Both the position numbers and the translations under genes were made by a program. From Gemmatimonadales bacterium (GTDB taxonomy: Bacteria; Gemmatimonadota; Gemmatimonadetes; Gemmatimonadales; JACORV01): a stretch of DNA of 64,000 bases. Numbering within the stretch: the stretch's first letter is position 1; each line of letters starts with the position of its first letter. The DNA lies in assembly GCA_035502185.1 (NCBI GenBank), contig DATJUT010000011.1, positions 17,228 to 81,227 on the forward strand, in the 5' to 3' direction. Of the stretch, positions 30,293 through 44,297 are shown one piece after another. Below the pieces are notes generated by a model. It saw only the letters and a list, made by a program, of their open reading frames with translations, had not been told where the DNA came from and did no database searches.

Positions 30293-33222
30293 CAGAAGTT
30301 GAACCTCAGGCCCGCCTGCACCGTCGCGCCGGGCGTGCTGCGGGCGAGCACCTTGCCGAAGTTCGGGTTCGCCACCAGCGGCACGGTCACGACGCCCACG
30401 CCGTTGGTGGTGAGCGCCCGGGTCGGATCGATCAGGTACAGGGCCCGGTCGATGACGCCGGTGTTGGTGCTCACCAGGTTGAGGCCGTCGACGACCAGCG
30501 ACAGCGGAGCGTGCACCAGCGTGGACAGGCCGATCACCAGCCGCGCGTCCAGGCTGGTCACCGCCGGCCCGCGGCACGAGTTGCGGGACGCGAACTGCCC
30601 GACCTGCGACTTGAGGCACGACTGCCCGCCCACCACCGCGGCCGCGCCCGACACGGTGTCCGAGACGAAGGCGGGGTCGTTGCCCGCCGCGCCGTCCCCG
30701 TTGGCGTCCACGCCGTCACGGAAACCCGGCGTGAAGGGCAGGCCCGACTGGTACCGCACCAGGCCGGCCAGCTTCACCGAGCCGCTCGACCACTCGAAGC
30801 CCGCGAGCGCGCGGTGCGGCACGTCGAGATCCGACCGCCCGTTCCGCCAGTCGGTGGTGCCGGCGCCGGTCGTGAGCGGCGGCGCCATCTGCGCGTCCGG
30901 CACGCTGCCCCCGAGGCCCGGCAGGTTGTCGGTCGTGTGCGAGAACGTGTAGCTCGCCCACACGCTGAGGCCCTGCTCCCGCAGGCGCTCCAGCGAGATC
31001 GTCAGGCCCCAGTAGTCCGAGGAGCCCGTCGGGTCGAGCGCCCACACGCGGTCGAACGCGCCGAACTGCCGGTTGCTCCCCGGCGTCGCCACCAGCAGGG
31101 AGCCGTCCTGCTGCAGCGTCCCGTAGATCGCGCGGCCGAACTGATCGGTGAACTGCGGGCTGGTGAGGAGGTTCAGGTCGGTGCGCCGCGGCAGGAAGTC
31201 GGTGTGGCGGTACTGGCCGGCGACCTGGACCGACGTCCCGGACGCGAGCGCATGCGCGATGCTGAAGCCGGCCCGGGAGGTCCGCGGTGCCTGGAAGTGC
31301 GAGTTCACGAGGCTCAGCACCGGCCCCGTGATCGGCGCGGCGGTGAAGTCCGGGACGGCCGGCCAGGGGCCGAACACGCCGACGCCGCGCCGCATCTCCG
31401 CGGTGCCGTCGTGGTTGAGGACCTCGGCCAGCACCGAGGGATCGACGCTCTCCGACGCGGTTCCCGCGTCCCCGCGCAGCAGCCAGTCACGCCGGGCGCC
31501 GGCGGACCACACGAACGAGAACCGCGGGTTCACCTGCGTCTTGAGCGACGGGATGCCCTGGTTGGGGATGCCGCTGACCCGGAGCCAATCCGCGTCCGGC
31601 GTGACGCCGCCGGTGGGCCAGTGCTCGCGCTCGAGCCGCAGGCCGACCAGCATGTCGAGGCCCGCGACCGGCGACCACGAGTCCTGGGCGAAGAAGGCGG
31701 TCGCGCTGATGGTGAACGTGGCGTCGGGCACGCCGCCCACCGACTGGACGAACGCGCCGCGGCCGAGGCCGAGATCGGCGGTGCTCCCGAACAGGAACTC
31801 GCCGCTCCGCAACGGATCGTAGGTGATGTCGTGGTTGGTCCAGTCGGCTGCAGCGCCGAACTTGAGCGCGTGGATGCCGAGGCGGTACAGCAGGGCCGCC
31901 GACGCCCGAGTCGCGTCGCGCTCGAACCGGCCGGGCACCGCCCCGTCGGCGCCGGCCGACAGCCCGTCCGCGGTCAGCACGGTGAGCGGCAGCGACGGCG
32001 CGGAGTAGTCGCGCAGGCTGCGATCGATGGCGAGCGACACCTCGGAGCCGAGGCGGGCGTTGAAGCGCGAGTTGAACGCCAGCGAGGCGGAGACGTCGCG
32101 CGCGTCGAGCGAGGTACCGAGTCCGGTGAAGCGCCCCTCGCCGAGGCCGACGTCGCTGGCCGTGGCGTTGGTCACGGCCGCCCGCAGCGCGATCGACTGC
32201 CCGCGCGCGATCTCCCAGTCGAACCGGCCGAAGGCGGTGATCACGTCGGTCTGCTGGGTCAGCGCCTTGAGGTACTCCGAGAGCTGCGGCGCGGCCGCGA
32301 CCACCGCGCTCGCCCCCGTGTCGTCCGGCCACGGCGACTTGAGCGGCGTGTTGATGCGCCGGGCGTCCACCCCGACCAGCCCCCACGCGGTGTCGCGCAC
32401 CACCGGCCCGCCGGCCACCACGGCGCCCCGATACCCGTTGGTGCCGGCGTCGGCGAAGCCCCGCACCTGCCCGGAGCGCGGCCCGCGCGCGCTGAACGCG
32501 CTGAGGAGCTCGCCGCCGATGCCCGGCCACTCGACGTCGGTTCCCGACGCCAGCTCCACGTGCTGCAGGCTCGCCAGCGGCAGCCCCAGCGTCGACCAGT
32601 CGGAACGCGACACGCCGGGGCTCGCCGCCGCGGTCCGCGGAATGCCGTCCACGCCCACCCAGCCGAGCCGGTCCGGGAGTCCCTCCATCGCGAGGCCGCC
32701 CGTGGTGGCCGACGCCAGGGCGGCGACCGACGAGACGCGGCCCAGCGGATCCACCAAATCGGCGAGGTCCGTTCCCGGATCCCACGTCCCGCGGGCGAGC
32801 GACGCGTGGAGCGCGCCCTCGACGAAGGACATCGTATCCGCCTGGGTGACCGGAGGATCCGCCGGCGTGAGCCGCAGGTCGAGCGTGACCACCGCGGCCG
32901 GGCTCACCGACACGTCGAGCACGATCAGCGGGCGGTAGCCCAGGCGCTCGGCCCGGATGTCGTAGCGCCCGGGCAGCAGCGCCGGGCTGCGGTACGCGCC
33001 GAGGCCGTCCGAGAGGACCGACCGCGCCCACGCCGTGGCGTGGTGCGTCATCGTGACGCGAACTCCCGCGATGATCTGACCGGAGGTGGAGACCGCGGCG
33101 CCGCGGATGGCGCCCGTCGTGACCGTCTGCGCCCGGGCTCCGGGAGCGGCCACGAGGCCGATCGCGATCGCACCCGCGATGGCCGGCACCATCCACTCCC
33201 GTGACAGGCGCGGCAAGCTCAT
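30292..33222 (-). CDS. Outer-membrane beta-barrel protein, TonB-dependent-receptor-like with an N-terminal CarboxypepD_reg domain
   Basis: Tracked ORF 30292..33306; the start is taken at MSLPRLSREWMVPAIAGAIAIGLVAAPGARAQ (signal peptide). It contains GVRVTMTH...LLPGRYDIRAERLGY (Cna/CarboxypepD-like). The C-terminus GLRFNF ends in an aromatic residue, as in OMP barrels. Confidence 0.7.
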   Translation of the reverse strand: MSLPRLSREWMVPAIAGAIAIGLVAAPGARAQTVTTGAIRGAAVSTSGQIIAGVRVTMTHHATAWARSVLSDGLGAYRSPALLPGRYDIRAERLGYRPLIVLDVSVSPAAVVTLDLRLTPADPPVTQADTMSFVEGALHASLARGTWDPGTDLADLVDPLGRVSSVAALASATTGGLAMEGLPDRLGWVGVDGIPRTAAASPGVSRSDWSTLGLPLASLQHVELASGTDVEWPGIGGELLSAFSARGPRSGQVRGFADAGTNGYRGAVVAGGPVVRDTAWGLVGVDARRINTPLKSPWPDDTGASAVVAAAPQLSEYLKALTQQTDVITAFGRFDWEIARGQSIALRAAVTNATASDVGLGEGRFTGLGTSLDARDVSASLAFNSRFNARLGSEVSLAIDRSLRDYSAPSLPLTVLTADGLSAGADGAVPGRFERDATRASAALLYRLGIHALKFGAAADWTNHDITYDPLRSGEFLFGSTADLGLGRGAFVQSVGGVPDATFTISATAFFAQDSWSPVAGLDMLVGLRLEREHWPTGGVTPDADWLRVSGIPNQGIPSLKTQVNPRFSFVWSAGARRDWLLRGDAGTASESVDPSVLAEVLNHDGTAEMRRGVGVFGPWPAVPDFTAAPITGPVLSLVNSHFQAPRTSRAGFSIAHALASGTSVQVAGQYRHTDFLPRRTDLNLLTSPQFTDQFGRAIYGTLQQDGSLLVATPGSNRQFGAFDRVWALDPTGSSDYWGLTISLERLREQGLSVWASYTFSHTTDNLPGLGGSVPDAQMAPPLTTGAGTTDWRNGRSDLDVPHRALAGFEWSSGSVKLAGLVRYQSGLPFTPGFRDGVDANGDGAAGNDPAFVSDTVSGAAAVVGGQSCLKSQVGQFASRNSCRGPAVTSLDARLVIGLSTLVHAPLSLVVDGLNLVSTNTGVIDRALYLIDPTRALTTNGVGVVTVPLVANPNFGKVLARSTPGATVQAGLRFNF

Positions 33223-33290
33223 TGGTCCGGGCAAACTTAGAGCCGGGGACCCAAAGGGGCAATGCGCCGCCCGGGAGCAGGCGCGGCAAC

Positions 33291-33896
33291 GTGACGCAGG
33301 ATACATTCGTGGCTGTGGCGCCCGAAGAGCTGCCGTCCCCGCCGCGCACCGCGCCGAACTTGCCCGGGCGCGTACTGCACTGGTGGCGGCGCCGGACGGC
33401 CCTGCGACGCCTGTCCCGGCGTCCTCACCCGCCCCCGCTGCTGTTCCTCTGCCACGGCAACCTGTGCCGCAGCCCGTTCGCCGCGGGCGTGGCGCGCCAG
33501 CTGCTCCCCTCGTGGGTCGACGTCGCCTCGGCCGGGTTCCTGGCGCCGGGACGCCGTTCGCCGCCCGAGGCGCTCGCGGCCGCGGGCGAGTTCGGCGTCG
33601 ACCTCTCGGCTCACCGCTCGGAGATCCTGACCGTCGACCATCTTCGCAACACGGACCTCGTGGTGGTGATGGACCGCGACCAGCGCCGCCGCCTCGTCAC
33701 CATGCAGCCCGCCCTCGCGAGCCGCGTCGTGCTCCTCGGCGACCTCGATCCCGTGCCCACGGCCGAGCGCGACGTGCCGGACCCCGTCAACCAGCCGCTC
33801 GACGCATTTCGCTCAGCCTACGGCCGCATTCACCGCTGCGTCCGCGCCCTCGCCGGCGCGTGGAGCCAGCAAGCCGGCACCCAGCCCCGCGGCTGA
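33291..33896 (+). CDS. Low-molecular-weight protein tyrosine phosphatase
   Basis: Tracked ORF 33201..33896. It has the C(X)5R(S) P-loop LLFLCHGNLCRSP and a DP motif (VPDPV). I prefer in-frame GTG 33291, because ATG 33201 would overlap the divergent OMP start. The start is uncertain. Confidence 0.8.
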   Translation: MTQDTFVAVAPEELPSPPRTAPNLPGRVLHWWRRRTALRRLSRRPHPPPLLFLCHGNLCRSPFAAGVARQLLPSWVDVASAGFLAPGRRSPPEALAAAGEFGVDLSAHRSEILTVDHLRNTDLVVVMDRDQRRRLVTMQPALASRVVLLGDLDPVPTAERDVPDPVNQPLDAFRSAYGRIHRCVRALAGAWSQQAGTQPRG

Positions 33897-35018
33897 GGCC
33901 GCGAGCTGCGCGGCCGGCGTGGGCAGCAGACCCACCACCGGCGCCAGCGCGGCGACGCCGCCCAGCGCGACGAGCGCCGTCACGGCGCCCGCGCCGTTCC
34001 TCCTCACCAGCAGTCCCACCGGCAGCAGGAGCAGCGCCGCGAACCCGCAGTCGAGCGCAGCCTCCGCGGCGGCCGGCAGGCCGGGGACGAAGCGCACCAG
34101 CGCCCACGCCCGCCCGGCCGGATAGCCCAGGCCGCAGCGCTCGCGGCCGTCGAGCGCGAGGCAGTAGCCGGATCTCCCGCGGCGCGCCTCCAGCGCGAGC
34201 GTGTCGCCCGGACGGGCGGCCGCGAGCGCGCCGCGCCACCGCAGGTCCGGCTGAAAGAGACCCAGGTCCGCCGCCCGACGGCGCACCCGGAGCACCAGGT
34301 CGTCGCGGTCCGCCCCCACGACCAGGATCTCCCGGTAGGCGGAGTCGGCGACGCTGAACAGCGGCGCGAGCCGCGCGGTGCGCGGACCCGCGACGGCCCG
34401 CACGACCAGCGGCTCGCCCGCCGCCAGGCGCTCGCGCGCCCCACGCGAATCGTCGAGACGCCCGTCGCCGAGCGGCGTGCCGCCGAGGGCGACGCTCAGC
34501 AGCCGGCCCCGGTACCACTCGAACTGCCCCAGCGCCGCCGTCCACTGGCCGTACCAGACGGTCGGGGGCAGGCTCGGGCGCAGGGCGAAGCCGGTGGCCG
34601 CGATCACCGCCCAGGCGGCCGCAGCGGCGAGCAGCCCGGCGCGCGCGGAGCGGCGCGCGGCCCACCGGCGCCGCGCGAGCACGACCAGCGCCGCGCCCAG
34701 CGTGGCCGCGACGACGTCGCCCAGGGTGGAGTCGCGGCCCGGGATGGCCAGCTGCGCGATCTCGATCAGCGCCGCGAGGAGGAACGCGGCCGCCACGATC
34801 CGCCGGCCGGCCACGCCGGACCACACGAGCCCGGCGGCGAGCGGCACGAACAGCAGCACGTTGGCGATGAAGTCGGACAGGCCGAGGTCGCCGCACAGCA
34901 GGCACCAGCGGAACGTCCCGGCATCGGGGCCGGCCGCCGGCGTGAGCGTGAGGCCCAGGACCAGAGCGAGTCCCGCCGCGGCGACCGCGACGCCGATCGC
35001 GCGCCGTCCGCCGATCAC
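33813..35018 (-). CDS. VanZ-like membrane protein with a C-terminal domain of unknown function
   Basis: This is the 3' part of tracked ORF 33813..36374. It contains LSDFIANVLLFVPLAAGL and IEIAQLAIPGRDSTLGDV (VanZ-like) and several hydrophobic helices. The GTG 35018 start is tentative. Confidence 0.6.
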   Translation of the reverse strand: MIGGRRAIGVAVAAAGLALVLGLTLTPAAGPDAGTFRWCLLCGDLGLSDFIANVLLFVPLAAGLVWSGVAGRRIVAAAFLLAALIEIAQLAIPGRDSTLGDVVAATLGAALVVLARRRWAARRSARAGLLAAAAAWAVIAATGFALRPSLPPTVWYGQWTAALGQFEWYRGRLLSVALGGTPLGDGRLDDSRGARERLAAGEPLVVRAVAGPRTARLAPLFSVADSAYREILVVGADRDDLVLRVRRRAADLGLFQPDLRWRGALAAARPGDTLALEARRGRSGYCLALDGRERCGLGYPAGRAWALVRFVPGLPAAAEAALDCGFAALLLLPVGLLVRRNGAGAVTALVALGGVAALAPVVGLLPTPAAQLAASAAGLGAGLLAPRAGEGADAAVNAAVG

Positions 35019-35056: not shown

Positions 35057-36283
35057 CTACGGGCGGGCGGGTGCGGCCGGCAGGGGGCCGGGCGCGAACG
35101 CCACCACCCGGGGATGGAGGTTCGCGATCCCCCGCACGTCGCGGTCGGCCGCGACGATCAGCGACGCGGCGGGGAACCAGCGATCGTACTCCCGCTGGAC
35201 GTCGTAGCGGACCAGGGCCGCTCCGACGTGGAAGGTGCCGGGCGCGAGGTGCAGGTCGAGCTCCACCGAGCAGTGGAAGGACTCGCCGGCCGGGAGGCTG
35301 ATGGCCTCCAGGCCGAGCCGCTGGGTGGAGGTGTCGAACACCCCGACCGCGCTCCCGTCCTGCAGGTACAGGGTGACGGACATCCGGTCGCAGGCCGTGC
35401 GTGCGGCGATCTCCACGTCCACCCACGCGCGCTCGCCGGACTGGAATACCGTGCGCGGGCCGTCGGCGCCGCGGACGGCGACGCGCGCCACGTACGCGTC
35501 GCGGCCTTCCACGTCGTGGCGGCCGGCGAGCGCGCCGACCAGGTACGCCTCGACCACCCGCTCCGGCTCGCCCGCCGCGGCGACCCGGCCGTGGTCGAGC
35601 AGGAGCGCCCGGCTGCACAGGTCGGTCACCGCGCGCAGGTTGTGCGACACGAACACCACCGTGGTGCCCTGGCGGATCACCTCGCGCATCCGCTCCATGC
35701 AGCGCCGCTGGAAGACGAGGTCGCCGACGCTGAGGACCTCGTCCACCAGGAGCACGTCGGGATCCACGTGCGCCGCGACGGAGAACCCGAGGCGGGCGAA
35801 CATCCCCGACGAGTAGCGCTTCACCGGCGTGTCCATGAACTCCTCGAGGCCCGAGAACGCGACGATCGCGTCGAACCGGCGGCGGATGTCCTCGCGCGCC
35901 ATCCCGAGGATGGTGCCGTAGAGGAACACGTTCTCGCGCCCGGTGAGGTCGGGATGGAACCCGGCGCTGACCTCGATCAGCGCCGAGAGCCGGCCATGGA
36001 TGCGCACCGCGCCGCGCGTGGGCCGCAGGATGCCGCCCAGCAGCTTGAGGAGGGTGCTCTTGCCCGCGCCGTTGCCGCCCACCACGCCGAGCGCCTCGCC
36101 GCGGCCCACGGCGAACGACACGTCGTGCAGCGCCCAGAACTCGCGGGCCGCCAGCTCCGGCGGCGGGCCCCGGCGCACCACGCGGCGCACCAGCGCGGGC
36201 ACCAGGTCGCGGAGCGAATCGTGCAGCTCGCCGCGGCGGAACTTCTTGGAGACGCGCTCGACCTCGACGGTGGTGTCGACCAT
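35057..36283 (-). CDS. ABC transporter ATP-binding protein, Wzt/TagH-type, with a ~160-aa C-terminal extension
   Basis: This is the 3' part of tracked ORF 35057..36643. It begins MVDTTVEVERVSKKF and contains GVVGGNGAGKSTLL (Walker A), YSSGMFARLGF (signature-like) and LLVDEVLSVGD (Walker B). A beta-rich tail follows (VDVEIAAR...SVELDLHLAPGTFHVGAALV). Confidence 0.9.
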   Translation of the reverse strand: MVDTTVEVERVSKKFRRGELHDSLRDLVPALVRRVVRRGPPPELAAREFWALHDVSFAVGRGEALGVVGGNGAGKSTLLKLLGGILRPTRGAVRIHGRLSALIEVSAGFHPDLTGRENVFLYGTILGMAREDIRRRFDAIVAFSGLEEFMDTPVKRYSSGMFARLGFSVAAHVDPDVLLVDEVLSVGDLVFQRRCMERMREVIRQGTTVVFVSHNLRAVTDLCSRALLLDHGRVAAAGEPERVVEAYLVGALAGRHDVEGRDAYVARVAVRGADGPRTVFQSGERAWVDVEIAARTACDRMSVTLYLQDGSAVGVFDTSTQRLGLEAISLPAGESFHCSVELDLHLAPGTFHVGAALVRYDVQREYDRWFPAASLIVAADRDVRGIANLHPRVVAFAPGPLPAAPARP

Positions 36284-36288
36284 CGGGC

Positions 36289-37083
36289 TCAGATCCGCTC
36301 CGCGAACCAGGGCTCGAGCCGCCGGAAGGCGAGCACGCCGCCCGCGCAGCAGGCCGCCGCCACGCCCAGCGCATACGCGGTCCACGCCGGATCCGGCGCC
36401 CGGCGGCTCACCACGGCGTCGGCCAGGCCCACCAGGAGCGGCGCCACCGGGTTGAGGAGCGCCGTCGTGGCGTGGCGGCCGAAGATCTCGACCGGGTAGA
36501 ACACCGGCGTGAAGAAGACCGCGAAGGTGATCACCACGTCCACCAGGTACTTCACGTCCCGAAAGAACAGCGCCGCGGCCGACAGGAACATCCCCAGGCC
36601 GAGGCACAGCACCACCAGGCCGAGCACCAGCAGCGGCACCCACAGGAGCGCCAGGCTCGCGCCGACGCCCGCCAGCGCGAGGACCACCGTCAGCACGGCC
36701 GTGGCCACGCCGAAGTCGGCGAACTGCGACAGCACCGCCGCGACCGGGAACACCTCACGCGGCAGGTAGACCTTCGTCACCAGCTCGCTGTTGGCGATCA
36801 GGCTGTTGGTGGCGAAGCGCAGCGACGCGACGAAGAACGCCCACGGCACGGACTTGACCGCCACCGCCGCGAGGTTCCGGGTGTCCACGCTCCGGCCCGC
36901 GTACCAGCCCAGACCGTACTGGACCGCGACGCCGGCCCCGACCACCAGCGCGGGCATCAGGATGGCCCACAGGAATCCCATCACGGACTGCTTGTACTTG
37001 ATCCGGATGTCGCGCCAGGCCAGCATCGCCACCAGGTCCCACCAGCGCCGGAGGCCGCGGCGGCCGCTCACCGGCTGGCTCAT
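36289..37083 (-). CDS. ABC-2 type transporter permease (Wzm/TagG-like)
   Basis: This is the 3' part of tracked ORF 36289..38085. It begins MSQPVSGRRGLRRWWDLVAMLAWRDIRIKYKQSVMGFLWAILMP and has 6 hydrophobic segments. There is an ATGA overlap with the upstream stop. Confidence 0.9.
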   Translation of the reverse strand: MSQPVSGRRGLRRWWDLVAMLAWRDIRIKYKQSVMGFLWAILMPALVVGAGVAVQYGLGWYAGRSVDTRNLAAVAVKSVPWAFFVASLRFATNSLIANSELVTKVYLPREVFPVAAVLSQFADFGVATAVLTVVLALAGVGASLALLWVPLLVLGLVVLCLGLGMFLSAAALFFRDVKYLVDVVITFAVFFTPVFYPVEIFGRHATTALLNPVAPLLVGLADAVVSRRAPDPAWTAYALGVAAACCAGGVLAFRRLEPWFAERI

Positions 37084-38207
37084 GCGGCCCTCCCTCGCGC
37101 GCGTTCGCGCGCCACGGCGCGCCAGCCGCGATATGCCAGGCGCGCCACCCGGCCGGCAGCCCAGCGACGCGCCTGCCTCAGCGGACCCGTGCCCTCCACC
37201 ACCGGCGTGGCCGCGATGCCGAGCTCCGTGCGCGTCCCCTCCTCGAGCAGCCGCTCCCGGAAGCCGTCGCCACCGCGGCCGCCCAGGACCGTCAGCCTCC
37301 ACGCCAGCGCGCGGGCCACGTCGAACTCCGGCGCGTCCCCGCTCACCGGCGCCGGCGGCGGCCCGGCCAGGTCGGCGGCGGCCCGCAGCCACGCCCGCGC
37401 CAGGCGCGGGTCCACCTCCGCGCCGGTCGCGACTCGCGCAGCGAGCCGTTCCCAGTCGAGCGGCAAGCCCGAGGCGAGGATGGCCGCGGCGTCCAGGAAG
37501 CAGCGCAGCCGGAAGCCGGAGGCGCCGGCGACGAGCGCGTGAGTGAGTCCGTGCCACAGCAGCTCGGTCGCGGGCGGCACCCGGACGCGCACGCCGTGCC
37601 ACTCCAGCTCGTCGCCGCCGCTCGCCCTGAGCCAGGCCTCCGCGGCCGGGACCGCGCCTCCCGTGGACCGGTGCAGCTCCACGCCCACGCCGTGCGGCCC
37701 CTGCAGCGGCGGCGGATGGTAGTGGCCCGCCGGAGTGCGGGACGGGCTGCCGGCGAACGGCCAGCCGCGCGCCCGGAGGTCGTCCCAGACCCCCTGCACG
37801 TGCTCCGCCGGCAGCAGCACGTCCACGTCCACCGTCAGGCGCGCGTCGGCGCCCGGGTAGCGGGAGGCCGCCGCGCGCCGCGCCGTGCCCTTGATGAGCA
37901 CGCACGGAACGCCGCGCTCGCCCAGGTAGCGCACCAGCCCCTCCGCCTCGGCGTCCACGAGCAGGCATCGCGCCTGCTCGGCCGCCGCCCGGCCGCGGAG
38001 CGCCGTGCGCAGCTCGGCGGGAAGCGCGTCCTCGATGCCCAGCGCCCCGAGGCGCCGCAGCAGCCACTGCGTTCCGCCTTCCCACGCCAGCGCGCGCGCC
38101 ATCGGACGGCCGGCCACCCGGCTCCAGGCCGCGCGCAGGTCCGCCCCGTCCGGCGCCCCGCGGAGCCTGAGGGTGCGCACCAGGGTCACGGCTCCCTCCG
38201 CGATCAT
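37080..38207 (-). CDS. Nucleotidyltransferase-fold protein (uncharacterised NTP_transf_5 / PF14907-like)
   Basis: This is the 3' part of tracked ORF 37080..38426. It begins MIAEGAVTLVRTL and contains LIKGTARR...LTVDVDVLLPAEH...HHPPPL...VELH, as in that family. There is an ATGA overlap with the B2-like stop. Confidence 0.7.
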   Translation of the reverse strand: MIAEGAVTLVRTLRLRGAPDGADLRAAWSRVAGRPMARALAWEGGTQWLLRRLGALGIEDALPAELRTALRGRAAAEQARCLLVDAEAEGLVRYLGERGVPCVLIKGTARRAAASRYPGADARLTVDVDVLLPAEHVQGVWDDLRARGWPFAGSPSRTPAGHYHPPPLQGPHGVGVELHRSTGGAVPAAEAWLRASGGDELEWHGVRVRVPPATELLWHGLTHALVAGASGFRLRCFLDAAAILASGLPLDWERLAARVATGAEVDPRLARAWLRAAADLAGPPPAPVSGDAPEFDVARALAWRLTVLGGRGGDGFRERLLEEGTRTELGIAATPVVEGTGPLRQARRWAAGRVARLAYRGWRAVARERARGRAA

Positions 38208-38551
38208 CCGGCCGCCGGCGATGGGAACCGCGCGATCTCGGTGAATCGCGCGCTGTGCGCCGGATCCGGCTCGAGGTAGGGCGCCCCGTCCTTCACCAGC
38301 CACGCGTGCGCCGCCAGCGCGCCCGCCTCGTCCTTGCGCACGCCGATGTGCAGCGCCACCGGCCGGCCGGCCCGGCGCAGCAGCCAGTAGAGCACGACGC
38401 CGCGCTTGAGGCAGGTGTAGCGCCACGGCGGCGGCAGGCGATACAGCAGCTGGCCCACGTAGGCGGCCAGCAGGGTGTCCTCGGGCGCGGTAGGGCTCGC
38501 GCGCCGCGGCGTCGCGGCGGCCGCCCGCGCGATCCGCTCGAGCGAAACCAC
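38204..38551 (-). CDS. Transglutaminase-like cysteine protease, lasso-peptide B2-like (PF13471-like)
   Basis: Tracked 115-aa ORF with a GTG start. It contains YTCLKRGVVLYWLLRRAG...LHIGV...LAAHAWLVKDG (Cys...His pattern of McjB-C/B2 proteins). The frame is open upstream of the GTG with plausible N-terminal sequence but no ATG/GTG/TTG, so the 5' end is uncertain. Confidence 0.7.
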   Translation of the reverse strand: MVSLERIARAAAATPRRASPTAPEDTLLAAYVGQLLYRLPPPWRYTCLKRGVVLYWLLRRAGRPVALHIGVRKDEAGALAAHAWLVKDGAPYLEPDPAHSARFTEIARFPSPAAG

Positions 38552-38622: not shown

Positions 38623-38898
38623 TCAGGGGCGCTCCTCCACCACCAGCACGCCCGTCTTCACGCCGCGCTCGACGAACTCGCGGGTCGTGTCGGTCGCCAC
38701 CGCCTCGGTCACCTCGTACCTGGCCGTGAGCACCGCCACCAGCTCGTCCAGGGTCTTCGGCGTCGCGAGCGCCTCGAGCAGGTCGAGGCCGCTCTCGCTC
38801 ACCGTGTAGTAGCGCCGCGTGCCGAGGTGGAGGGCCACGCCCTCGCCCTCGAGCGCCGTCAGCCTCAGCTCGGGATGCCGCCGGTAGCGGCGCGTCAT
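38623..38898 (-). CDS. PqqD-family peptide chaperone (RRE; lasso B1-like)
   Basis: This is the 3' part of tracked ORF 38623..39837. Its sequence is MTRRYRRHPELRLTALEGEGVALHLGTRRYYTVSESGLDLLEALATPKTLDELVAVLTARYEVTEAVATDTTREFVERGVKTGVLVVEERP. There is an ATGA overlap with the kinase-like stop. Confidence 0.75.
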   Translation of the reverse strand: MTRRYRRHPELRLTALEGEGVALHLGTRRYYTVSESGLDLLEALATPKTLDELVAVLTARYEVTEAVATDTTREFVERGVKTGVLVVEERP

Positions 38899-39815
38899 GG
38901 CACGAGCTCCATCAGCAGGTCGCGGCGGCGGAACAGGTCGGGCGCCAGGGCGACGCGGTAGCACCGCGCCTGGCGCGCGAGCGCGGTGAGCAGATCGAGA
39001 TGCTCCTGCGCCAGCTCCGGCTCGAGCACCACCCAGGCCGACCAGCGCACCAGCTCCGCCAGCGCCTCCCGCGCCGGGACCGGCGCCGCACTGGTGCGCT
39101 CGCCCTCGATCCGCGGGAACACCAGGATGCGAGGCTCCACGCGCGGCGCCCAGGTGCCGCCGAGATCCTCGGGGAAGAACGCACTCTTCCGACCGCCGCG
39201 CGCGGCGGTGCCTCCCGCGAGGCCGAGCAGCGCGCGGCCGGCGGGCCGCAACGCGACCGGGGCGCGCTGCGCCACGGCCTCGACGCTCGCCCGGCTCCGC
39301 ACCAGGAAGGCGGCGTCGTCGCACCCCACGGCCCAGCCCCACGAGGCCAGCAGCGCCGCCGTGGTGGACTTGCCCGACTGGGCGTTGCCCGCGAACAGCC
39401 AGTCGCGGCCCCGCGGGTCGCGGGCGAGGGCCGCGTGCACGTGGTGCCAGCCGGCGCGCCGCAACAGCAGGATCAGGACCACCGAGAAGAAGCTCTGCGC
39501 CAGCGGCTCCGGGTCCGCCAGCGCCGCGGGCGTGACCTCGACGACGGCGTCGTGCGCGCCGCCCGCGATCCGCGCGCGCGCCGGTGCGGCCAGCCAGCGG
39601 ACCCGGACGTCGCCCTGCGGCGGGCCGCTGCGGATCTCGATCCCGGGCTGCAGAAACGGCGCCCGCTCGTCCACCTCGTCTTCGGAAAGCGCCGGCACGG
39701 CCCGCAGCTCGATGCCCAGGGGCACCGGCGGCGCCAGGCGCATGCCGTCGATCCACGCCGCGACCCAGCTCACCAGCGCGTCGTCGTCCCCCGTCACCCC
39801 GATTCCCGCGCGCAT
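38895..39815 (-). CDS. HPr-kinase-C-terminal-like P-loop protein (HprK-related kinase)
   Basis: Tracked 306-aa ORF. It contains HVHAALARDPRGRDWLFAGNAQSGKSTTAALLASWGWAVGCDDAAF (Walker-A-like GKST followed by DD), as in HprK-related kinases of RiPP and EPS loci. Confidence 0.75.
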   Translation of the reverse strand: MRAGIGVTGDDDALVSWVAAWIDGMRLAPPVPLGIELRAVPALSEDEVDERAPFLQPGIEIRSGPPQGDVRVRWLAAPARARIAGGAHDAVVEVTPAALADPEPLAQSFFSVVLILLLRRAGWHHVHAALARDPRGRDWLFAGNAQSGKSTTAALLASWGWAVGCDDAAFLVRSRASVEAVAQRAPVALRPAGRALLGLAGGTAARGGRKSAFFPEDLGGTWAPRVEPRILVFPRIEGERTSAAPVPAREALAELVRWSAWVVLEPELAQEHLDLLTALARQARCYRVALAPDLFRRRDLLMELVP

Positions 39816-39834: not shown

Positions 39835-39870
39835 CAAAGCAAACGCGCCAGCCCGCGAGGGGCTGGCGCG
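39835..39870 (-). terminator. Intrinsic-terminator-like hairpin between the small peptide ORF and the kinase-like gene
   Basis: An 11-bp perfect GC-rich stem (39844-39854 cgcgccagccc pairing with 39860-39870 gggctggcgcg) has a 5-nt loop. On the minus strand it is followed by TTTGCTTTG (39843-39835). It begins 24 nt after the peptide stop and ends 19 nt before ATG 39815. Confidence 0.5.
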
Positions 39871-39893: not shown

Positions 39894-39995
39894 CTAGGTG
39901 GGGAGTCCGCCGCCGCCGGTTTCGCTCACCAGCGTCACCTCAGCCAGCGAGGCCTCCTCATTCAACGTCGGTGGCACGAAGGGCTTCCTCTCCAT
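39894..39995 (-). CDS. Candidate RiPP precursor peptide, 33 aa: MERKPFVPPTLNEEASLAEVTLVSETGGGGLPT
   Basis: It is too short for the ORF track; I translated it codon by codon from ATG 39995 to TAG 39894-39896. AAGGAGG at 40013-40007 lies 11 nt upstream. F6/P9/L11/T21 match the lasso leader positions Y-17/P-14/L-12/T-2 if cleavage follows L22. It sits directly upstream of the K-B1-B2 genes on the same strand. Confidence 0.55.
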   Translation of the reverse strand: MERKPFVPPTLNEEASLAEVTLVSETGGGGLPT

Positions 39996-40270: not shown

Positions 40271-42247
40271 CTACCCGGCCCGCTCGACCTTCCAGTACAC
40301 GACGTACCGCTGGTCGAGTACCGAGTGGAACGGCGCGAGCGTGACGTCCTGCGCCTGCCCCGTGGTCCGGAACGCCAGCGGCTGCGGCTCGCCCGCGCGG
40401 CCCGAGGGTGCGCGGGTGCTCGAGGCGGCGCCGTCCGCGCCTCCGCTCACTCGCTCGATCCAGGTCGCCGGATCGTCGGACCGCACGCGCAGCGCCGGCA
40501 CGGGCGGCGGCTGGTAGGTGAACTCCGGCACCCTCCCCGGCCTGGTGGGCTCGGCCCGGCGGTTCGCGTCGGTGATGCCCTCGGTGCCCAGCATCCCGAC
40601 CAGCACGAGCGGTCCGTACATCACGGCCTGCACGGTCGGGTCGTCCGGCATCGCGTGCATGTGGAGCCCCATGGGCAGAGCGACCTCGAGCCGGTCGCCG
40701 TCCTTCCAGACGCGGTCCACGACGAAGTAGCCGCCGGGCGCGGCGAAGCCGTCGAGCGTTCTCCCGTTGAGCGCGGCCCCGCCGCCCCTGGTCCACGCCG
40801 GCACCCGCACCCGCAGCGCGAAGCGCGCGGGCCGCGCGCCGCGCACGGTGATGGCGGTGCCCGCCGCGTCGGGGAAGCGCGTGTCCTGCACCAGCCGCAC
40901 TCCCTTCTCGGCCCACTCCACCTCCGAGGCGATGAACTGGTTCACCCACACGCCGTCGTCGTCGTGGAACCAGATGCTGTCGCCGAACTTCGACGCCGAC
41001 TCGCTGCCGGTGCCGGTGCAGCACCAGAAGTCGTGGAGCGGCGTGCCGAACAGCTTCCAGTAGCCGCTCGCCAGCGGGACGTAGTAGAGCTTCTCGCCGT
41101 CCGCCGGGTGCTGGGTGCCGAGCACGCCGTTCCACAGCAGGCGCTCGTAGTAGTCGGCCGCCGCGGGATCCGCGGTCCAGCCGAACACGTGGCGGGCGAG
41201 CTTCAGCATGTTGTAGCTGGTGCAGCACTCCTGCGTGTCGCTGCTCAGCTCGGCCGCCAGGACGCCGGGCTCCGTGTTCCACCCCTCGCCGTTGCTGGTG
41301 CCGCCGGTGCAGTAGGCGCGCCGGGTCGAGACCTCGCGCCAGAAATACTCCGCCACGTCGCGGTAGCGTGCCTCGCCCGTCAGCTCGTAGCGGCGGGCGG
41401 CGCCGATGATCTTGGGAATGGTGGTGTTGACATGCAGGCCCTTCAGCTCGTCGCGCCCCGCCGCCAGCGGGCCGAAGACACGTTCGTGATCGAAGCGGTG
41501 GGCCAGCTCGGCATACCAGGCCGTGCCCGTGACGGCGGTGAGGTTGTACAGCAGCTCGTTCATCCCGCCGTACTCGCGCTCCAGCACGCGCGCCATCGCC
41601 TCGTCGCCCAGCGGCTGCGCCCACCCGGCGGTCCAGCGCGCCATCCCCTTCAGCACGTCCAGCGCCTGCGCGTTGCCCGTCAGCGTATGCATGTCCAGCA
41701 GGCCGGCCATGATCTTGTGGAGCGTGTAGAACGGCGCCCATACCGGGCGGCCCGCGCGCAGCCGGTCGAAGAACTCCTCCGGGAACGCGCTCAGGTACCC
41801 GTTGCCGAGCGCGTGCTGGCAGCGCGCCAGCTCCGCCACCATCAGGTCGCCGCGTGCCTTCACGTCGGCATCGCCCAGGCTCGTGGACATCAGCGCGCAC
41901 GCCGAGAGGTAGTGGCCGGTGTAGTGGCCGCGCAGCTCGTTCTCCGGCGCCTCCCAGCCGCCGAGCGGCACGGCCGCGGTGGGCAGTCCGGCGGTGAGGC
42001 GGAAGGTGTGCAGCAGGCGGTCGGGGTCGAGCCCCATCAGGTAGCGCCGATTCACCTGCATCGCGTCGAGAAACGGGCCGGGCAGGAGGCGCACCCGCGC
42101 CAGGTCGAACGGGCGCGCGACGGGCGCCGGGGCGGCGTCGCCGGCCGGCAGCGCCGGGGCAAGCCGCGCGCCGAGGCGCAGCCGGGCCAGGGGGACCGTC
42201 GCGGCCGCCGCCGCCAGGAAGTCCCTGCGTCTCATGGTACGCTCCAC
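40271..42247 (-). CDS. GH127-family beta-L-arabinofuranosidase-like protein (DUF1680), Tat signal
   Basis: Tracked 658-aa ORF. It has MRRRDFLAAAAA (twin-Arg). It contains YTGHYLSA, FYTLHKIMAGL, TQECCTSYNM and FWCCTGTGSE (Glu/Cys cluster as in the GH127 Zn/Cys site). Confidence 0.85.
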   Translation of the reverse strand: MERTMRRRDFLAAAAATVPLARLRLGARLAPALPAGDAAPAPVARPFDLARVRLLPGPFLDAMQVNRRYLMGLDPDRLLHTFRLTAGLPTAAVPLGGWEAPENELRGHYTGHYLSACALMSTSLGDADVKARGDLMVAELARCQHALGNGYLSAFPEEFFDRLRAGRPVWAPFYTLHKIMAGLLDMHTLTGNAQALDVLKGMARWTAGWAQPLGDEAMARVLEREYGGMNELLYNLTAVTGTAWYAELAHRFDHERVFGPLAAGRDELKGLHVNTTIPKIIGAARRYELTGEARYRDVAEYFWREVSTRRAYCTGGTSNGEGWNTEPGVLAAELSSDTQECCTSYNMLKLARHVFGWTADPAAADYYERLLWNGVLGTQHPADGEKLYYVPLASGYWKLFGTPLHDFWCCTGTGSESASKFGDSIWFHDDDGVWVNQFIASEVEWAEKGVRLVQDTRFPDAAGTAITVRGARPARFALRVRVPAWTRGGGAALNGRTLDGFAAPGGYFVVDRVWKDGDRLEVALPMGLHMHAMPDDPTVQAVMYGPLVLVGMLGTEGITDANRRAEPTRPGRVPEFTYQPPPVPALRVRSDDPATWIERVSGGADGAASSTRAPSGRAGEPQPLAFRTTGQAQDVTLAPFHSVLDQRYVVYWKVERAG

Positions 42248-42302
42248 GTGGGGTGGATGTCCTGCACCCTATGGGCCGCGCCGGCGCCGGTCAAGTCGCG
42301 GC

Positions 42303-44111
42303 TCAGCCCCCGATGCCCGCCCAGGCCGCGGCCCGCCGGACGACCGCGTCCATCTCCGGCTGGTGCGCGCCGAAGGTGTCGTCCACCACGCTGAGCGTGG
42401 GGATGAGGCCCTCGCGCCGTGCGAGGGAGAGGCTGTCCGGGTCGAAGCGCCCGAAGCCCGACTCGTGCACGCCGCTGGAGCCGCGGCCGGGCGCGGGATG
42501 GCTGAGGTGCGAGAACGCGCGCACGTACGGCGCGAGCCGCGGCCAGTACACCTGGTGGAGCGGGAGACAGGCCGCCAGCGCGTCATAGAGGAACTCGCCG
42601 CAGGCCAGCACGCCCGGATGGCGCTCGCGCAGGCCGGCCACCAGGCGCCGCAAGCCCTCGTGCATGTCCGCCTGCGGGTTGTTCATCCACCCGCCCGTGA
42701 TGTCCAGGAAATAGGCGTCCACGCCGTAGCGCTCGATCGTCTCGGCGATGCGGCCGGTGAGCCAGGTGCGCCACGAGTCCACGCCGAGGTTCATGTACGA
42801 GAGCCAGCCCTCCTCGTGACGGTCGTTGTCCCAGTCCACCCAGTTCAGGTCGAAGCGGTCGCCGTCGACCTTGCTCGTCGCCGCGTCCGCGATCCCGGGC
42901 CACACCGCCTGCCGCCGGTTGGCGGCATTGGCACCGAACATCGGCATGAAGCGGAACCCGAGCCGCTGGCCCTCGCGCACCAGGCGCACGAACCCGCGCT
43001 CGCCGCCGAGGCGCTCGGCGGGCCGGTAGACCGGGTAGTCCCAGTAGTAGCGCCCGTCCCACGCGGGCAGGAAGACGAGCACGCGCTGCGGCGGAATCCG
43101 CGCGGCCACCCACTGCAGGATCTCGAGCATCCGGGCGAAGTCGTTGAACACGTAGCCGGTGTAGTGCATGCCGTGCAGCGCGACCACGAGCGCGGTCTCG
43201 TGCAGCCAGGCCGGCGCGTCGGCGCGGTCGGCGAAGCGCGGAATGCGATACGCCTTCTCCAGGTGGTCGAAGTGCGGCTGCGCGGCGGCCTCGAGTGACG
43301 CCGCGCGGCCCGCCCGCCACGTCGGCACGCGAACCTCGCGCCGGTCGAGCCAGCCCTCCGCCTCGAACACGCACTCCACCCGGTAGCCGCTCTCGCCGGG
43401 CTCGAAGTAGAAGCGCTTGGCGCGCACCTGGTCGTCGAGCGACGAGAGGAAGAAGCAGTCGCCGCCGCCCGCCTGCACGATCACCAGGGGCGTGCCGGCG
43501 CTCCACGCGGTGTTGCCCCCGTACAGGTCGCCGGCGCCGAACGGGTAGCCGACCAGCACCTCGTCGTCGTGCACGTCCACCGCGCCGCCACCCGCGACCG
43601 AGATCTTCCCGCGCGGCACGCCCCGGAGCACGGTCGTGACCGCCTTCACGGGCTGGTCCAGCGCGGCCGTGACGTCCCACTCGATCCAGTCCCCGCTGGT
43701 GCGCAGCCGCGCCTCCAGGCGCCCCGGGGCACGCTCCTGACCGCCCGCCCAGACGAGCTCCGGGGCGGTGACGACCAGGTCGCCGCCATCGACCTCCGCC
43801 CGGAGGTGGTCGGGGCTGACGCCGTAGACGTTTTCGCGGCTGAAGACGAGGAAGCCGAACCGCAGGCCGCCGTACTCGACCGACGGCTCGGGGAAGTCGA
43901 AGCTGAACTTCTGGAGCGAGTCCCCGCGCGGCGGAACGAACACCTCGCTCGTGGAGGTCAGCGGGAGGATCCGGGCCTGCGGGGGCCGGCCGTGCAGGGC
44001 GTCCGGCCCCCGGCCCAGCAGGGGGATGGCGGCGGCGGCGCCGGCGGCCTTCAGGAGATCGCGGCGCGAGATGGGGTCGGGCATGGGCTCCTCGGGCTCT
44101 CCTCTTTCCAT
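42303..44111 (-). CDS. Tat-signal secreted protein of unknown family (possible glycoside-hydrolase-like)
   Basis: Tracked 602-aa ORF with normal composition. It contains ISRRDLLKAAGAAAA (twin-Arg). An alternative start is ATG 44084 (MPDPISRRDLL). The function is not recognisable by eye. Confidence 0.6.
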   Translation of the reverse strand: MERGEPEEPMPDPISRRDLLKAAGAAAAIPLLGRGPDALHGRPPQARILPLTSTSEVFVPPRGDSLQKFSFDFPEPSVEYGGLRFGFLVFSRENVYGVSPDHLRAEVDGGDLVVTAPELVWAGGQERAPGRLEARLRTSGDWIEWDVTAALDQPVKAVTTVLRGVPRGKISVAGGGAVDVHDDEVLVGYPFGAGDLYGGNTAWSAGTPLVIVQAGGGDCFFLSSLDDQVRAKRFYFEPGESGYRVECVFEAEGWLDRREVRVPTWRAGRAASLEAAAQPHFDHLEKAYRIPRFADRADAPAWLHETALVVALHGMHYTGYVFNDFARMLEILQWVAARIPPQRVLVFLPAWDGRYYWDYPVYRPAERLGGERGFVRLVREGQRLGFRFMPMFGANAANRRQAVWPGIADAATSKVDGDRFDLNWVDWDNDRHEEGWLSYMNLGVDSWRTWLTGRIAETIERYGVDAYFLDITGGWMNNPQADMHEGLRRLVAGLRERHPGVLACGEFLYDALAACLPLHQVYWPRLAPYVRAFSHLSHPAPGRGSSGVHESGFGRFDPDSLSLARREGLIPTLSVVDDTFGAHQPEMDAVVRRAAAWAGIGG

Positions 44112-44297
44112 AGGTATAGGTCATAGGCGGCCGGGGGCCGGCGCGCAAACGGGCGCCGGCGGCCCCGGCCGACCTCTATGGCGAGGGCCCGCCCGCGCGT
44201 TACCTTTCGGCCGCCGGGCGCGTCGGAACCGCAGAGGTCGGTCGCTCCATCCCTCCGGTCGGTTTCTGGGTCTTTCGGCACGCTAGGAGGCCTCCCG

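What the first reader, a model, noticed from the sequence alone, without database searches (positions are those of the whole stretch)
35057..37083. The exporter of the peptide cassette is a Wzm/Wzt ABC-2 pair whose ATPase has a C-terminal beta-rich extension, not a RiPP-type exporter
Sequence: the permease has the ABC-2 (Wzm/TagG) layout, and the ATPase carries about 160 extra C-terminal residues (VDVEIAAR...SVELDLHLAPGTFHVGAALVRYD...). Established knowledge: in ABC-dependent O-antigen systems the Wzt C-terminal domain is a carbohydrate-binding module. It recognises a chain-terminating modification (for example the methyl-phosphate added by the WbdD kinase/methyltransferase in E. coli O9a). 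Lasso and other RiPP clusters normally use McjD/half-transporter type exporters. Inference: the kinase and nucleotidyltransferase products may create the terminal tag read by this Wzt tail. The tag could be on a glycan, on the peptide, or on a peptide-glycan conjugate. Either way the combination is unusual.
Basis: partly seen in the sequence, partly recalled or inferred. Interest (0 to 1): 0.55.

Follow-up and report, generated by a model that had tools for sequence, protein, structure and literature searches.

The report
Glycan-type exporter beside lasso-like peptide cassette
A transporter of the kind that normally exports sugar polymers, including its sugar-recognising tail, sits in the same operon as a small peptide-modifying gene set in Gemmatimonadota bacteria, and the pairing recurs across many genomes, so the transporter may export a phosphate- and sugar-tagged peptide rather than, or as well as, a polysaccharide.

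Summary
Wzm is 36289..37083(-), 264 aa, with an ABC-2 permease domain. Wzt is 35057..36283(-), 408 aa, with intact ATPase motifs. Its residues 262-386 match Pfam Wzt_C above the curated cut-off. The AlphaFold model of the tail (pLDDT 90.8) matches only solved Wzt carbohydrate-binding domains at the top (TM about 0.70).

The pair follows a cassette of precursor, HprK-like kinase (K), PqqD (B1), protease (B2) and nucleotidyltransferase (N), with a 4-bp N/Wzm overlap. No cyclase was found, so this is not a lasso cluster.

The cassette is a Gemmatimonadota family. In 16 of 39 informative loci a Wzm/Wzt pair with a Wzt_C tail lies next to it. Two unrelated Wzt lineages are involved. Searched on its own, the second lineage is cassette-linked in 33 of 34 loci, in at least five different genomic contexts, and the contexts annotated contain no glycan-synthesis genes. 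Four other loci have a classical half-transporter in the same slot.

Against this, the window's own Wzt lineage is closest to exporters inside glycan clusters. Those clusters share genes with the EPS locus next door, and the binding-pocket motif is generic.

Verdict: the unusual link is real. Peptide export via a K/N-made phospho-sugar tag is the best but unproven reading (about 0.45).

The parts
39894..39995 (-). Precursor peptide gene A (33 aa, MERKPFVPPTLNEEASLAEVTL|VSETGGGGLPT). The leader carries the lasso-type motif F-17, P-14, L-12, T-2. The predicted core is 11 aa with Ser at position 2.
   Evidence: ORF with a GGAGG ribosome-binding site. It was called independently on the source contig. 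Homologous peptides lie upstream of K in many loci.
39835..39870 (-). Hairpin followed by UUUGCUUUG, between A and K. It looks like a terminator or attenuator.
   Evidence: 16-bp stem; MFE -40.4 kcal/mol for the 71-nt segment; z = -3.4 against shuffles.
38895..39815 (-). K: HprK-like P-loop kinase (306 aa, GNAQSGKS).
   Evidence: Weak NCBIfam hits to ScmC and HprK_rel_A. Precomputed PF27840 ScmC, weak. The family has about 264 members, nearly all Gemmatimonadota. P-loop residues are invariant.
38623..38898 (-). B1: PqqD-type RRE (91 aa), overlapping K by 4 bp.
   Evidence: Pfam PqqD E 5e-12. Weak NCBIfam hits to lasso PqqD models.
38204..38551 (-). B2: transglutaminase-like Cys protease (115 aa as called; the start may lie up to 38638).
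   Evidence: Pfam Transglut_core3 E 4.6e-20.
37080..38207 (-). N: nucleotidyltransferase (375 aa, DVD motif at residue 127). It overlaps B2 by 4 bp and Wzm by 4 bp.
   Evidence: Pfam NTP_transf_5 PF14907 E 3.2e-25. Motif. Junctions.
36289..37083 (-). Wzm: ABC-2 permease (264 aa).
   Evidence: Pfam ABC2_membrane 39.8 bits. Weak NCBIfam hit to galactan Wzm. Multiple hydrophobic segments.
35057..36283 (-). Wzt: ATPase (residues 1-249) plus carbohydrate-binding-domain tail (residues about 250-408).
33813..35018 (-). VanZ-like membrane protein, co-directional, 38 nt after Wzt. It may be the last gene of the operon.
   Evidence: Pfam VanZ E 1.7e-9. It is syntenic in L002, L004 and L119.
28154..33896 (.). 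Wzb-like low-molecular-weight phosphatase (33222..33896 +) and two CarboxypepD_reg outer-membrane barrel proteins (30292..33234 -, 28154..30715 -). This is the conserved block next to Wzm/Wzt and the edge of the EPS locus.
   Evidence: The same OMP pair occurs in the glycan cluster L118.

Best explanation
The region encodes a functional O-antigen-type ABC-2 exporter: the Wzm permease and the Wzt ATPase with a C-terminal jelly-roll carbohydrate-binding domain. It is the exporter module of a cyclase-less, lasso-derived peptide cassette (A-K-B1-B2-N).

Proposed mechanism. B1 binds the lasso-type leader of the 33-aa precursor. K phosphorylates a Ser or Thr of the core; the conserved Ser at core position 2 is the best candidate. 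N adds sugar to that phosphate, as PsmK and PsmN do in pseudomycoidin. B2 removes the leader. The Wzt tail docks the resulting phospho-sugar mark and Wzm/Wzt moves the short linear phosphoglycopeptide across the inner membrane.

What is shown: the gene identities, the operon junctions, the fold of the tail, and the recurrent genomic linkage. What is inferred: the substrate, the modified residue, and that the tail reads the K/N product.
For: (1) Architecture and fold are established.

(2) Operon structure: K/B1, B2/N and N/Wzm each overlap by 4 bp, Wzm and Wzt are 5 nt apart, and no convincing terminator lies inside the operon. L002 has the same N/Wzm overlap.

(3) Slot logic: the order A-K-B1-B2-N-exporter matches psmA-K-B1-B2-N-D. 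In L011, L014, L032 and L066 the slot holds an ABC half-transporter; ABC_membrane+ABC_tran was confirmed by Pfam for L014 and L066.

(4) Recurrence: of 39 species-representative cassette loci with at least 2.5 kb downstream, 16 have a Wzm/Wzt pair adjacent.

(5) Two lineages: the convergent 'group 2' Wzt shares only about 48% (ATPase domain) and about 17% (tail) identity with the window protein and forms a separate clade. It still carries Wzt_C above the cut-off.

(6) Reverse test: searching metagenomes with the group-2 tail alone gave 34 loci with enough flank, and 33 have N-B2-B1-K next to the transporter. These span at least 5 different flanking contexts. The contexts annotated (L070, L042, L023, L110, L101) hold no glycan-synthesis genes.

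(7) Group-2 and transporter-less loci can share the same flanks (DUF4097 and a protein kinase). The pair therefore comes and goes as a unit beside the cassette.

(8) Every locus of the window's own Wzt clade (at least 73% identity) with upstream sequence shows the cassette: window, L002, L003, L007, L004 and L119.

(9) No methyltransferase or WbdD-like cap enzyme was found among about 55 window ORFs scanned, whereas the glycan-cluster relatives have methyltransferases beside Wzt.

(10) The neighbouring EPS locus has two Wzx-type flippases of its own.

(11) Published K and N homologues make Ser-phosphate-hexose on a peptide.
Against: The window's Wzt is 63-64% identical to Wzts that sit inside classical glycan clusters (L005, L118). 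Those clusters share PIG-L, DUF6298, pyruvyl transferase and the same OMP pair with the window's EPS locus. The window pair could therefore simply be part of that locus.

The putative pocket motif (TST-x-R, RYD, YD-x-W, hinge Tyr) is near-invariant in 121 homologues whatever their context. The tail shows no sign of specialising for a peptide-borne ligand.

In L004 and L119 two opposite-strand genes separate N from Wzm. In L061 and L069 the cassette abuts VanZ-PTP-OMP with no Wzm/Wzt. 23 of 39 loci have no ABC-2 pair. The cassette is far more diverged than the transporter between the window and L004 (K 44% against Wzm 84%).

Known Wzm/Wzt substrates are lipid-linked polymers, and no peptide substrate is known. 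Homology of N to PsmN rests on a shared family description and gene position; it was not tested by direct comparison.
Confidence: 0.45

Rival explanations
1. This is an ordinary glycan exporter. Wzm/Wzt belongs to the adjacent EPS/glycan locus (about 1-37 kb) and exports a capped, lipid-linked polysaccharide. The peptide cassette merely sits at the edge of that locus, and its product uses no dedicated transporter or uses another one.
For: The closest relatives outside the cassette-linked clade (P0024/L118 and P0028/L005, 63-64% identity) lie within glycan clusters carrying GT2s, methyltransferases, PIG-L, DUF6298, pyruvyl transferase and the same OMP pair as in the window. The pocket motif is shared with all generic homologues. 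The window carries a large EPS locus with exosortase-type markers. Wzm/Wzt always lies beside VanZ/PTP/OMP in this clade. N and Wzm are separated by opposite-strand genes in L004 and L119. The cassette exists without any ABC-2 pair in 23 of 39 loci.
Against: It does not explain why a second, unrelated Wzm/Wzt lineage is cassette-linked in 33 of 34 loci, in at least 5 contexts, with no glycan-synthesis genes in the contexts annotated. It does not explain the 4-bp N/Wzm overlap in the window and L002. The EPS locus already has two Wzx flippases. No cap-forming methyltransferase or kinase other than K and N was found in the window.
Confidence: 0.3
2. The substrate is a peptide-glycan conjugate. 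K and N install a phospho-sugar on the core peptide, glycosyltransferases of the neighbouring locus extend it, and Wzm/Wzt exports the resulting glycopeptide or peptide-primed glycan. The tail reads the glycan terminus.
For: This reading reconciles both data sets: a generic glycan-type pocket and conserved linkage to the cassette. PsmN-dependent addition of one or two hexoses to phospho-Ser has been shown. In this clade the cassette sits beside glycan-locus components, and in L119 beside a PEP-CTERM protein. L105 has a Wza-like OPX protein next to the group-2 Wzm, which suggests polymer-type export.
Against: The group-2 loci that were annotated have no glycosyltransferases nearby. No peptide-primed polysaccharide is known. 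The reading is entirely inferential.
Confidence: 0.15
3. The pair is a self-protection (immunity) pump. Like the LanFEG-type pumps of lanthipeptide clusters, it expels the mature peptide from the producer's membrane and is not the primary exporter.
For: ABC-2 transporters serve as immunity pumps in several RiPP classes (general knowledge, not tested here). Many cassette loci lack any transporter, so the pair behaves as an accessory gene.
Against: A carbohydrate-binding tail is not a feature of known immunity pumps. The cytoplasm-facing tail points to recruitment of a cytoplasmic substrate. The cores are short and mostly Gly/Ser-rich, which is not typical of membrane-active peptides.
Confidence: 0.05

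Closest known systems
CBD-dependent O-antigen ABC transporters WzmWzt (A. aeolicus 7K2T/8DKU; E. coli O9a 2R5O; K. pneumoniae/R. terrigena O12 5HNO)
   Same: Separate ABC-2 permease. ATPase with the YSSGM signature. C-terminal jelly-roll domain with TM about 0.70 to all three solved CBDs. The hinge-helix Tyr and the pocket Trp of the A. aeolicus protein are conserved (Y247, W369).
   Different: The operon partners are a RiPP-type precursor, RRE, protease, kinase and nucleotidyltransferase, not glycosyltransferases plus a WbdD-type terminator. The two cap-contacting His of A. aeolicus (H350, H355) are both Val here (V358, V362), and Asn313 is Ser. The substrate is unknown.
Pseudomycoidin / paeninodin-type lasso clusters (A-K-B1-B2-N-D with cyclase C)
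   Same: Same gene order K-B1-B2-N-exporter. Lasso-type leader motif. HprK-like kinase. Nucleotidyltransferase of the 'uncharacterised' family with a DxD motif.
   Different: No cyclase in the 64-kb window or in seven Pfam-annotated related loci. Most cores lack the Asp/Glu needed for a macrolactam. The conserved acceptor candidate is Ser at core position 2, not a C-terminal Ser. The exporter is Wzm/Wzt with a CBD instead of the half-transporter D.
Teichoic-acid exporters TagGH/TarGH and mycobacterial galactan Wzm-Wzt
   Same: These give the best NCBIfam hits for the ATPase domain (TagH 198 and 182 bits; galactan Wzt 180 bits), and the permease is also ABC-2.
   Different: All scores are far below the curated cut-offs (538, 320, 400). 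The TagH/TarH and galactan Wzt (RfbE) chains matched in the PDB are 260-280 residues long and align only with the ATPase domain.
HprK-related kinase A / SynChlorMet ScmC cassettes (NCBIfam TIGR04352, TIGR04249)
   Same: P-loop kinase of the HprK superfamily encoded next to a PqqD-like protein.
   Different: K scores 24-25 bits against cut-offs of 200 and 125, so it is not a member.

Membership tests
Wzm/Wzt ABC-2 glycan exporter with carbohydrate-binding domain | Separate ABC-2 type permease (PF01061) | tested here: met
   39.8 bits against cut-off 26.9.
Wzm/Wzt ABC-2 glycan exporter with carbohydrate-binding domain | ATPase with intact Walker A/B, signature and H-loop | tested here: met
   GGNGAGKS, VLLVDE, YSSGM, SHN. 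ABC_tran E 2.7e-19.
Wzm/Wzt ABC-2 glycan exporter with carbohydrate-binding domain | C-terminal Wzt_C jelly-roll domain | tested here: met
   PF14524 41.8 bits against 30.4. Model pLDDT 90.8. The top 17 PDB matches are all Wzt CBDs.
Wzm/Wzt ABC-2 glycan exporter with carbohydrate-binding domain | Cap-binding pocket residues as in solved CBDs | tested here: inconclusive
   W362 maps to W369, D354 to D361 and hinge Y233 to Y247, all conserved. H350 maps to V358, H355 to V362 and N313 to S319, all changed. The pocket motif is shared with 121 homologues.
Wzm/Wzt ABC-2 glycan exporter with carbohydrate-binding domain | Encoded with glycosyltransferases and a chain-terminating cap enzyme (WbdD-like kinase/methyltransferase or Kdo transferase) | tested here: not met
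   The operon partners are A, K, B1, B2, N and VanZ. No methyltransferase was found among about 55 window ORFs. Glycosyltransferases do exist 10-35 kb away in the EPS locus.
Wzm/Wzt ABC-2 glycan exporter with carbohydrate-binding domain | Transports an undecaprenyl-linked capped polysaccharide | not testable with these tools
   Needs biochemistry or genetics.
Lasso peptide biosynthetic cluster | Precursor with the YxxPxL...Tx leader motif | tested here: met
   F-17, P-14, L-12 and T-2 in the window peptide, conserved across loci.
Lasso peptide biosynthetic cluster | B1 (PqqD RRE) and B2 (transglutaminase-like protease) | tested here: met
   PqqD E 5e-12 and Transglut_core3 E 4.6e-20.
Lasso peptide biosynthetic cluster | Asparagine-synthetase-like lasso cyclase (C), and a core with Asp/Glu at position 7-9 | tested here: not met
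   No Asn_synthase hit in any window ORF scanned or in the precomputed Pfam lists of L001, L002, L004, L070, L071, L072 and L119. Cores such as VSPPPV, QTSAVL and TSGGGGGGAT have no acidic residue. A cyclase elsewhere in the genome cannot be excluded.
Lasso peptide biosynthetic cluster | ABC half-transporter D (ABC_membrane + ABC_tran) | tested here: not met
   Absent beside the cassette in the window. Present in relatives L011, L014, L032 and L066.
Pseudomycoidin-type phosphoglycosylation (K + N) | HprK-like kinase and PsmN-like nucleotidyltransferase adjacent to B1/B2 | tested here: inconclusive
   The K P-loop and the N PF14907 hit with a DVD motif are present, and the gene order is identical. 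Direct sequence comparison with PsmK and PsmN was not possible.
Pseudomycoidin-type phosphoglycosylation (K + N) | C-terminal Ser as phosphate acceptor | tested here: not met
   The window core ends in Thr, and C-termini vary across the family. The conserved hydroxyl residue is Ser at core position 2.
HprK-related kinase A system (TIGR04352) | Score above the curated cut-off | tested here: not met
   24.1 bits against 200.

The most novel reading that the evidence does not exclude
A carbohydrate-binding-domain Wzm/Wzt transporter has been recruited at least twice in Gemmatimonadota to export a ribosomal peptide. An HprK-like kinase and a nucleotidyltransferase mark that peptide with a phospho-sugar. 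The phospho-sugar on the peptide plays the role that the chain-terminating cap plays on O-antigens. This would be a new export route for RiPPs and the first non-polysaccharide ligand for a Wzt tail. A stronger form is that the peptide primes a glycan and the conjugate is exported.
Probability: 0.4. Interest if true: 0.8.

Novelty: new variant of a known kind. Interest (0 to 1): 0.6.

Why it matters
Wzt carbohydrate-binding tails are understood only as readers of polysaccharide chain-end caps. RiPP export is understood mainly through half-transporters and immunity pumps. A conserved pairing of the two would link the fields. It suggests that phospho-glycosylation by K and N, whose purpose in pseudomycoidin is still unclear, can serve as an export address. 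It also defines a widespread, uncharacterised family of short linear phospho(glyco)peptides in a poorly studied soil phylum. The hypothesis can be tested directly with a six-gene heterologous construct and one purified 160-residue domain.

Tried and rejected
(1) A tail HMM built only from the window-type homologues did not detect the group-2 tails. Pfam later showed that those tails are Wzt_C. The 'no tail' result was an artefact of a narrow profile.

(2) The sigma-70 promoter scan found nothing in 33-40.5 kb. The terminator scan missed the strong hairpin after the precursor gene, which folding confirmed.

(3) The NCBIfam equivalogs (TagH, galactan Wzt/Wzm, HprK_rel_A, ScmC, lasso PqqD) were all far below their cut-offs. 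No membership was claimed.

(4) Literature searches for Wzt together with RiPP, for cyclase-less lasso cassettes, and for PF14907 returned nothing relevant. A search for lasso peptides or RiPPs in Gemmatimonadota listed only general genome-mining surveys and reviews, none of which was read.

(5) I considered that K and N might cap a glycan directly, as WbdD does. I rejected this as the lead reading because A, B1 and B2 are strictly co-conserved with K and N, and because the characterised homologues act on the peptide.

(6) I considered that the group-2 linkage is only inherited synteny. I rejected this because the module recurs in at least 5 flank contexts.

(7) A call with mis-framed coordinates and a seven-term literature query failed. 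The first was repeated correctly and the second reworded.
Full report
**1. What is at the coordinates**

The window is about 74% G+C, so genes were called by codon-position G+C. The interval 35057..37083 holds exactly two minus-strand genes. Wzt is 35057..36283 (408 aa) and Wzm is 36289..37083 (264 aa). The gene calls on the source metagenome contig (ENA ERZ27256612, 95 kb) are identical.

Pfam gives ABC2_membrane for Wzm. For Wzt it gives ABC_tran (residues 52-183) plus Wzt_C PF14524 (residues 262-386, E 1.4e-10, 41.8 bits against a 30.4 cut-off). The ATPase motifs are intact.

The whole Wzt, tail included, aligns to the solved full-length A. aeolicus Wzt (8DKU/7K2T, E 1.2e-62). An AlphaFold2 model of residues 250-408 is confident (pLDDT 90.8, ten beta strands). 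Its 17 best PDB matches are all Wzt carbohydrate-binding domains, from A. aeolicus, the O12 system and E. coli O9a, with TM about 0.70.

**2. The surroundings**

Reading the minus strand from 39995, the genes are as follows.
- A 33-aa precursor gene with a GGAGG ribosome-binding site.
- A strong hairpin plus U-run.
- K, an HprK-like P-loop kinase.
- B1, a PqqD-type RRE.
- B2, a transglutaminase-like protease.
- N, an NTP_transf_5 nucleotidyltransferase with a DVD motif.
- Wzm, Wzt and a VanZ-like protein.

K/B1, B2/N and N/Wzm each overlap by 4 bp, and Wzm and Wzt are 5 nt apart.

No asparagine-synthetase-like cyclase was found among about 55 ORFs scanned across the 64 kb.

Beyond VanZ lie a Wzb-like phosphatase, two CarboxypepD_reg outer-membrane barrels and DUF6298. 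After those comes a large EPS locus with two Wzx-type flippases, a pyruvyl transferase, sugar-nucleotide enzymes and exosortase-type markers (DUF3473 deacetylase, FemAB-like GNAT, AMP-ligase-ACP-hydrolase).

**3. The cassette is a family, and it is not a lasso cluster**

K has only about 264 detectable homologues, nearly all from Gemmatimonadota. A scan of species-representative genomes with a K alignment returned 63 loci. Almost all carry K-B1-B2-N in the same order.

Upstream peptides share the leader M..KPFVxPTLxEEASLAxVTL. In the window peptide this places F at -17, P at -14, L at -12 and T at -2, which is the lasso leader recognition motif. The cores are short and variable, and many have no acidic residue, so they cannot form a lasso macrolactam. 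Ser at core position 2 is nearly invariant.

Seven related loci with precomputed Pfam lists also lack a cyclase. The product is therefore most likely a short linear modified peptide.

Published work on pseudomycoidin shows that PsmK phosphorylates a Ser of the peptide and that PsmN is required to add one or two hexoses to that phosphate. The psm gene order is A-K-B1-B2-N-D.

**4. Is Wzm/Wzt linked to the cassette?**

- *Forward test.* Of 39 loci with N and at least 2.5 kb downstream, 16 have a Wzm/Wzt pair adjacent. Two are co-directional, as in the window. Fourteen are convergent, with about 75-85 nt between N and the Wzt reading frame.
- *Different lineage.* The convergent 'group 2' Wzt proteins are about 400 aa and carry Wzt_C above the cut-off. 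They share only about 48% (ATPase domain) and about 17% (tail) identity with the window protein and form a separate clade.
- *Reverse test.* A metagenome scan with the group-2 tail alone gave 34 loci with enough flank. In 33 of them N-B2-B1-K lies next to the transporter.
- *Contexts.* The group-2 loci fall into at least five unrelated flanking contexts. The annotated ones hold housekeeping genes, not glycan synthesis.
- *Gain and loss as a unit.* Loci with and without the pair can share the same flanks (DUF4097 plus a protein kinase).
- *Exporter slot.* In four loci the position after the cassette is occupied by a classical half-transporter. ABC_membrane plus ABC_tran was confirmed by Pfam in L014 and L066.
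- *The window's own clade.* Every locus of this Wzt clade (at least 73% identity) with upstream sequence shows the cassette. In L004 and L119, however, two opposite-strand genes, one of them a PEP-CTERM protein, separate N from Wzm.

**5. Evidence pulling the other way**

The next relatives of the window Wzt (63-64% identity, L005 and L118) sit inside classical glycan clusters. These carry GT2s, methyltransferases, PIG-L, DUF6298, pyruvyl transferase and the same OMP pair that flanks the window's transporter.

The residues that map onto the A. aeolicus cap pocket belong to motifs (TST-x-R, RYD, YD-x-W, hinge Tyr) that are near-invariant in 121 homologues from several phyla, whatever their context. 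The window tail therefore shows no special adaptation.

In L061 and L069 the cassette abuts VanZ-PTP-OMP with no Wzm/Wzt. Cassette proteins are much more diverged than the transporter between the window and L004 (K 44% against Wzm 84%).

On the other side of the balance, the window's EPS locus has its own Wzx flippases. No cap-forming methyltransferase was found, whereas L005 and L118 have methyltransferases right beside Wzt.

**6. Mechanism and weights**

- *Best reading (about 0.45).* Wzm/Wzt is the exporter module of the cassette. K and N put a phospho-sugar on the core peptide, probably on Ser2. B2 removes the leader. The cytoplasm-facing tail docks the mark, as it docks O-antigen caps between tail and ATPase domain, and the peptide is translocated.
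- *Rival 1 (about 0.30).* An ordinary glycan exporter of the adjacent locus.
- *Rival 2 (about 0.15).* A peptide-glycan conjugate is the substrate.
- *Rival 3 (about 0.05).* An immunity pump.

The genes, folds, junctions and genomic statistics are shown. The substrate and the ligand of the tail are inferred.

**7. Comparison with what is known, and novelty**

In architecture the pair is a member of the CBD-type Wzm/Wzt family. It fails the contextual criterion of that family, namely glycosyltransferases and a terminator enzyme in the same operon.

The cassette works like the K/N part of pseudomycoidin-type clusters. It is not a lasso cluster: it has no cyclase, the cores are unsuitable, and the acceptor position differs.

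No paper in the searchable library links Wzt with RiPPs or describes cyclase-less lasso-type cassettes.

I file this as a new variant of a known kind, with interest 0.6. The link is real and testable, but its functional meaning is unproven.

Noticed in passing
window 39894..39995 (-) and loci L007-L069: The cassette family has lasso-type leaders but no cyclase. The cores are short and often lack any Asp/Glu, and Ser at core position 2 is nearly invariant. This looks like an uncharacterised class of linear, lasso-derived RiPPs in Gemmatimonadota.
   Followed up: partly
L025, L026, L030, L033, L035, L042, L067 (upstream of K): Precursors of the loci with the convergent (group-2) transporter have longer cores ending in His/Gly-rich tails (GHGHGHGH..., NYHGHGHNS). 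This is reminiscent of metal-binding peptides. The window-type cores lack such tails.
   Followed up: no
window 39835..39870 (-): A strong hairpin (16-bp stem, z = -3.4) followed by UUUGCUUUG lies between the precursor gene and K. It looks like an attenuator that sets the precursor-to-enzyme ratio. The consensus terminator scan missed it.
   Followed up: yes
L105:3440-4228 (+): A Wza/KpsD-like outer-membrane polysaccharide export protein (Poly_export + SLBB) lies about 1.2 kb upstream of the group-2 Wzm in one context. GlmS lies beside it. This hints at polymer-type export across the outer membrane.
   Followed up: no
L119:4170-4865 (-), L004 8070-8825 (-): Two opposite-strand genes are inserted between N and Wzm in one sub-lineage. 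In L119 one of them has a PEP-CTERM sorting signal, which links the site to exosortase systems.
   Followed up: partly
window 1..12711: Exosortase-type EPS markers are present: polysaccharide deacetylase with DUF3473, a FemAB-like GNAT, an AMP-ligase/ACP/hydrolase fusion, an acyl-CoA dehydrogenase and a 4'-phosphopantetheinyl transferase. No exosortase gene itself was seen in the window.
   Followed up: no
L066:10001-13133; L015; L024: Some loci have reduced cassettes. L066 shows K-B1 followed directly by the half-transporter, with no detectable B2 or N. L015 shows K then N with no B1/B2 hit. L024 lacks a B2 hit.
   Followed up: no
L073, L075, L077-L079, L085, L042:3642-4802: A galactokinase gene lies about 1 kb upstream of the precursor and K in the commonest group-2 context. 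It could supply sugar-1-phosphate for N, or it may simply be a syntenic neighbour.
   Followed up: no
window 33813..35018 (-); L061, L069, L117: A VanZ-like membrane protein with a long C-terminal extension accompanies the cassette and transporter in this clade. It persists, inverted, where Wzm/Wzt is absent. Its function is unknown.
   Followed up: no
group-2 Wzt tails (alignment A3): The group-2 tails share an invariant, Arg/His-rich motif, W-H-V-L-H-G-T-R-x-N-R-Q-G. It is absent from the window-type tail. A phosphate-binding site is one possibility, but this was not examined structurally.
   Followed up: no
window 40271..47907 and 54092..63999: Upstream of the cassette are a GH127 beta-L-arabinofuranosidase-like enzyme, a TAT-signal protein, a Big_1 protein and FGGY sugar kinases. 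Further on are MacB/FtsX-HlyD efflux systems and a sigma-54 two-component pair.
   Followed up: no
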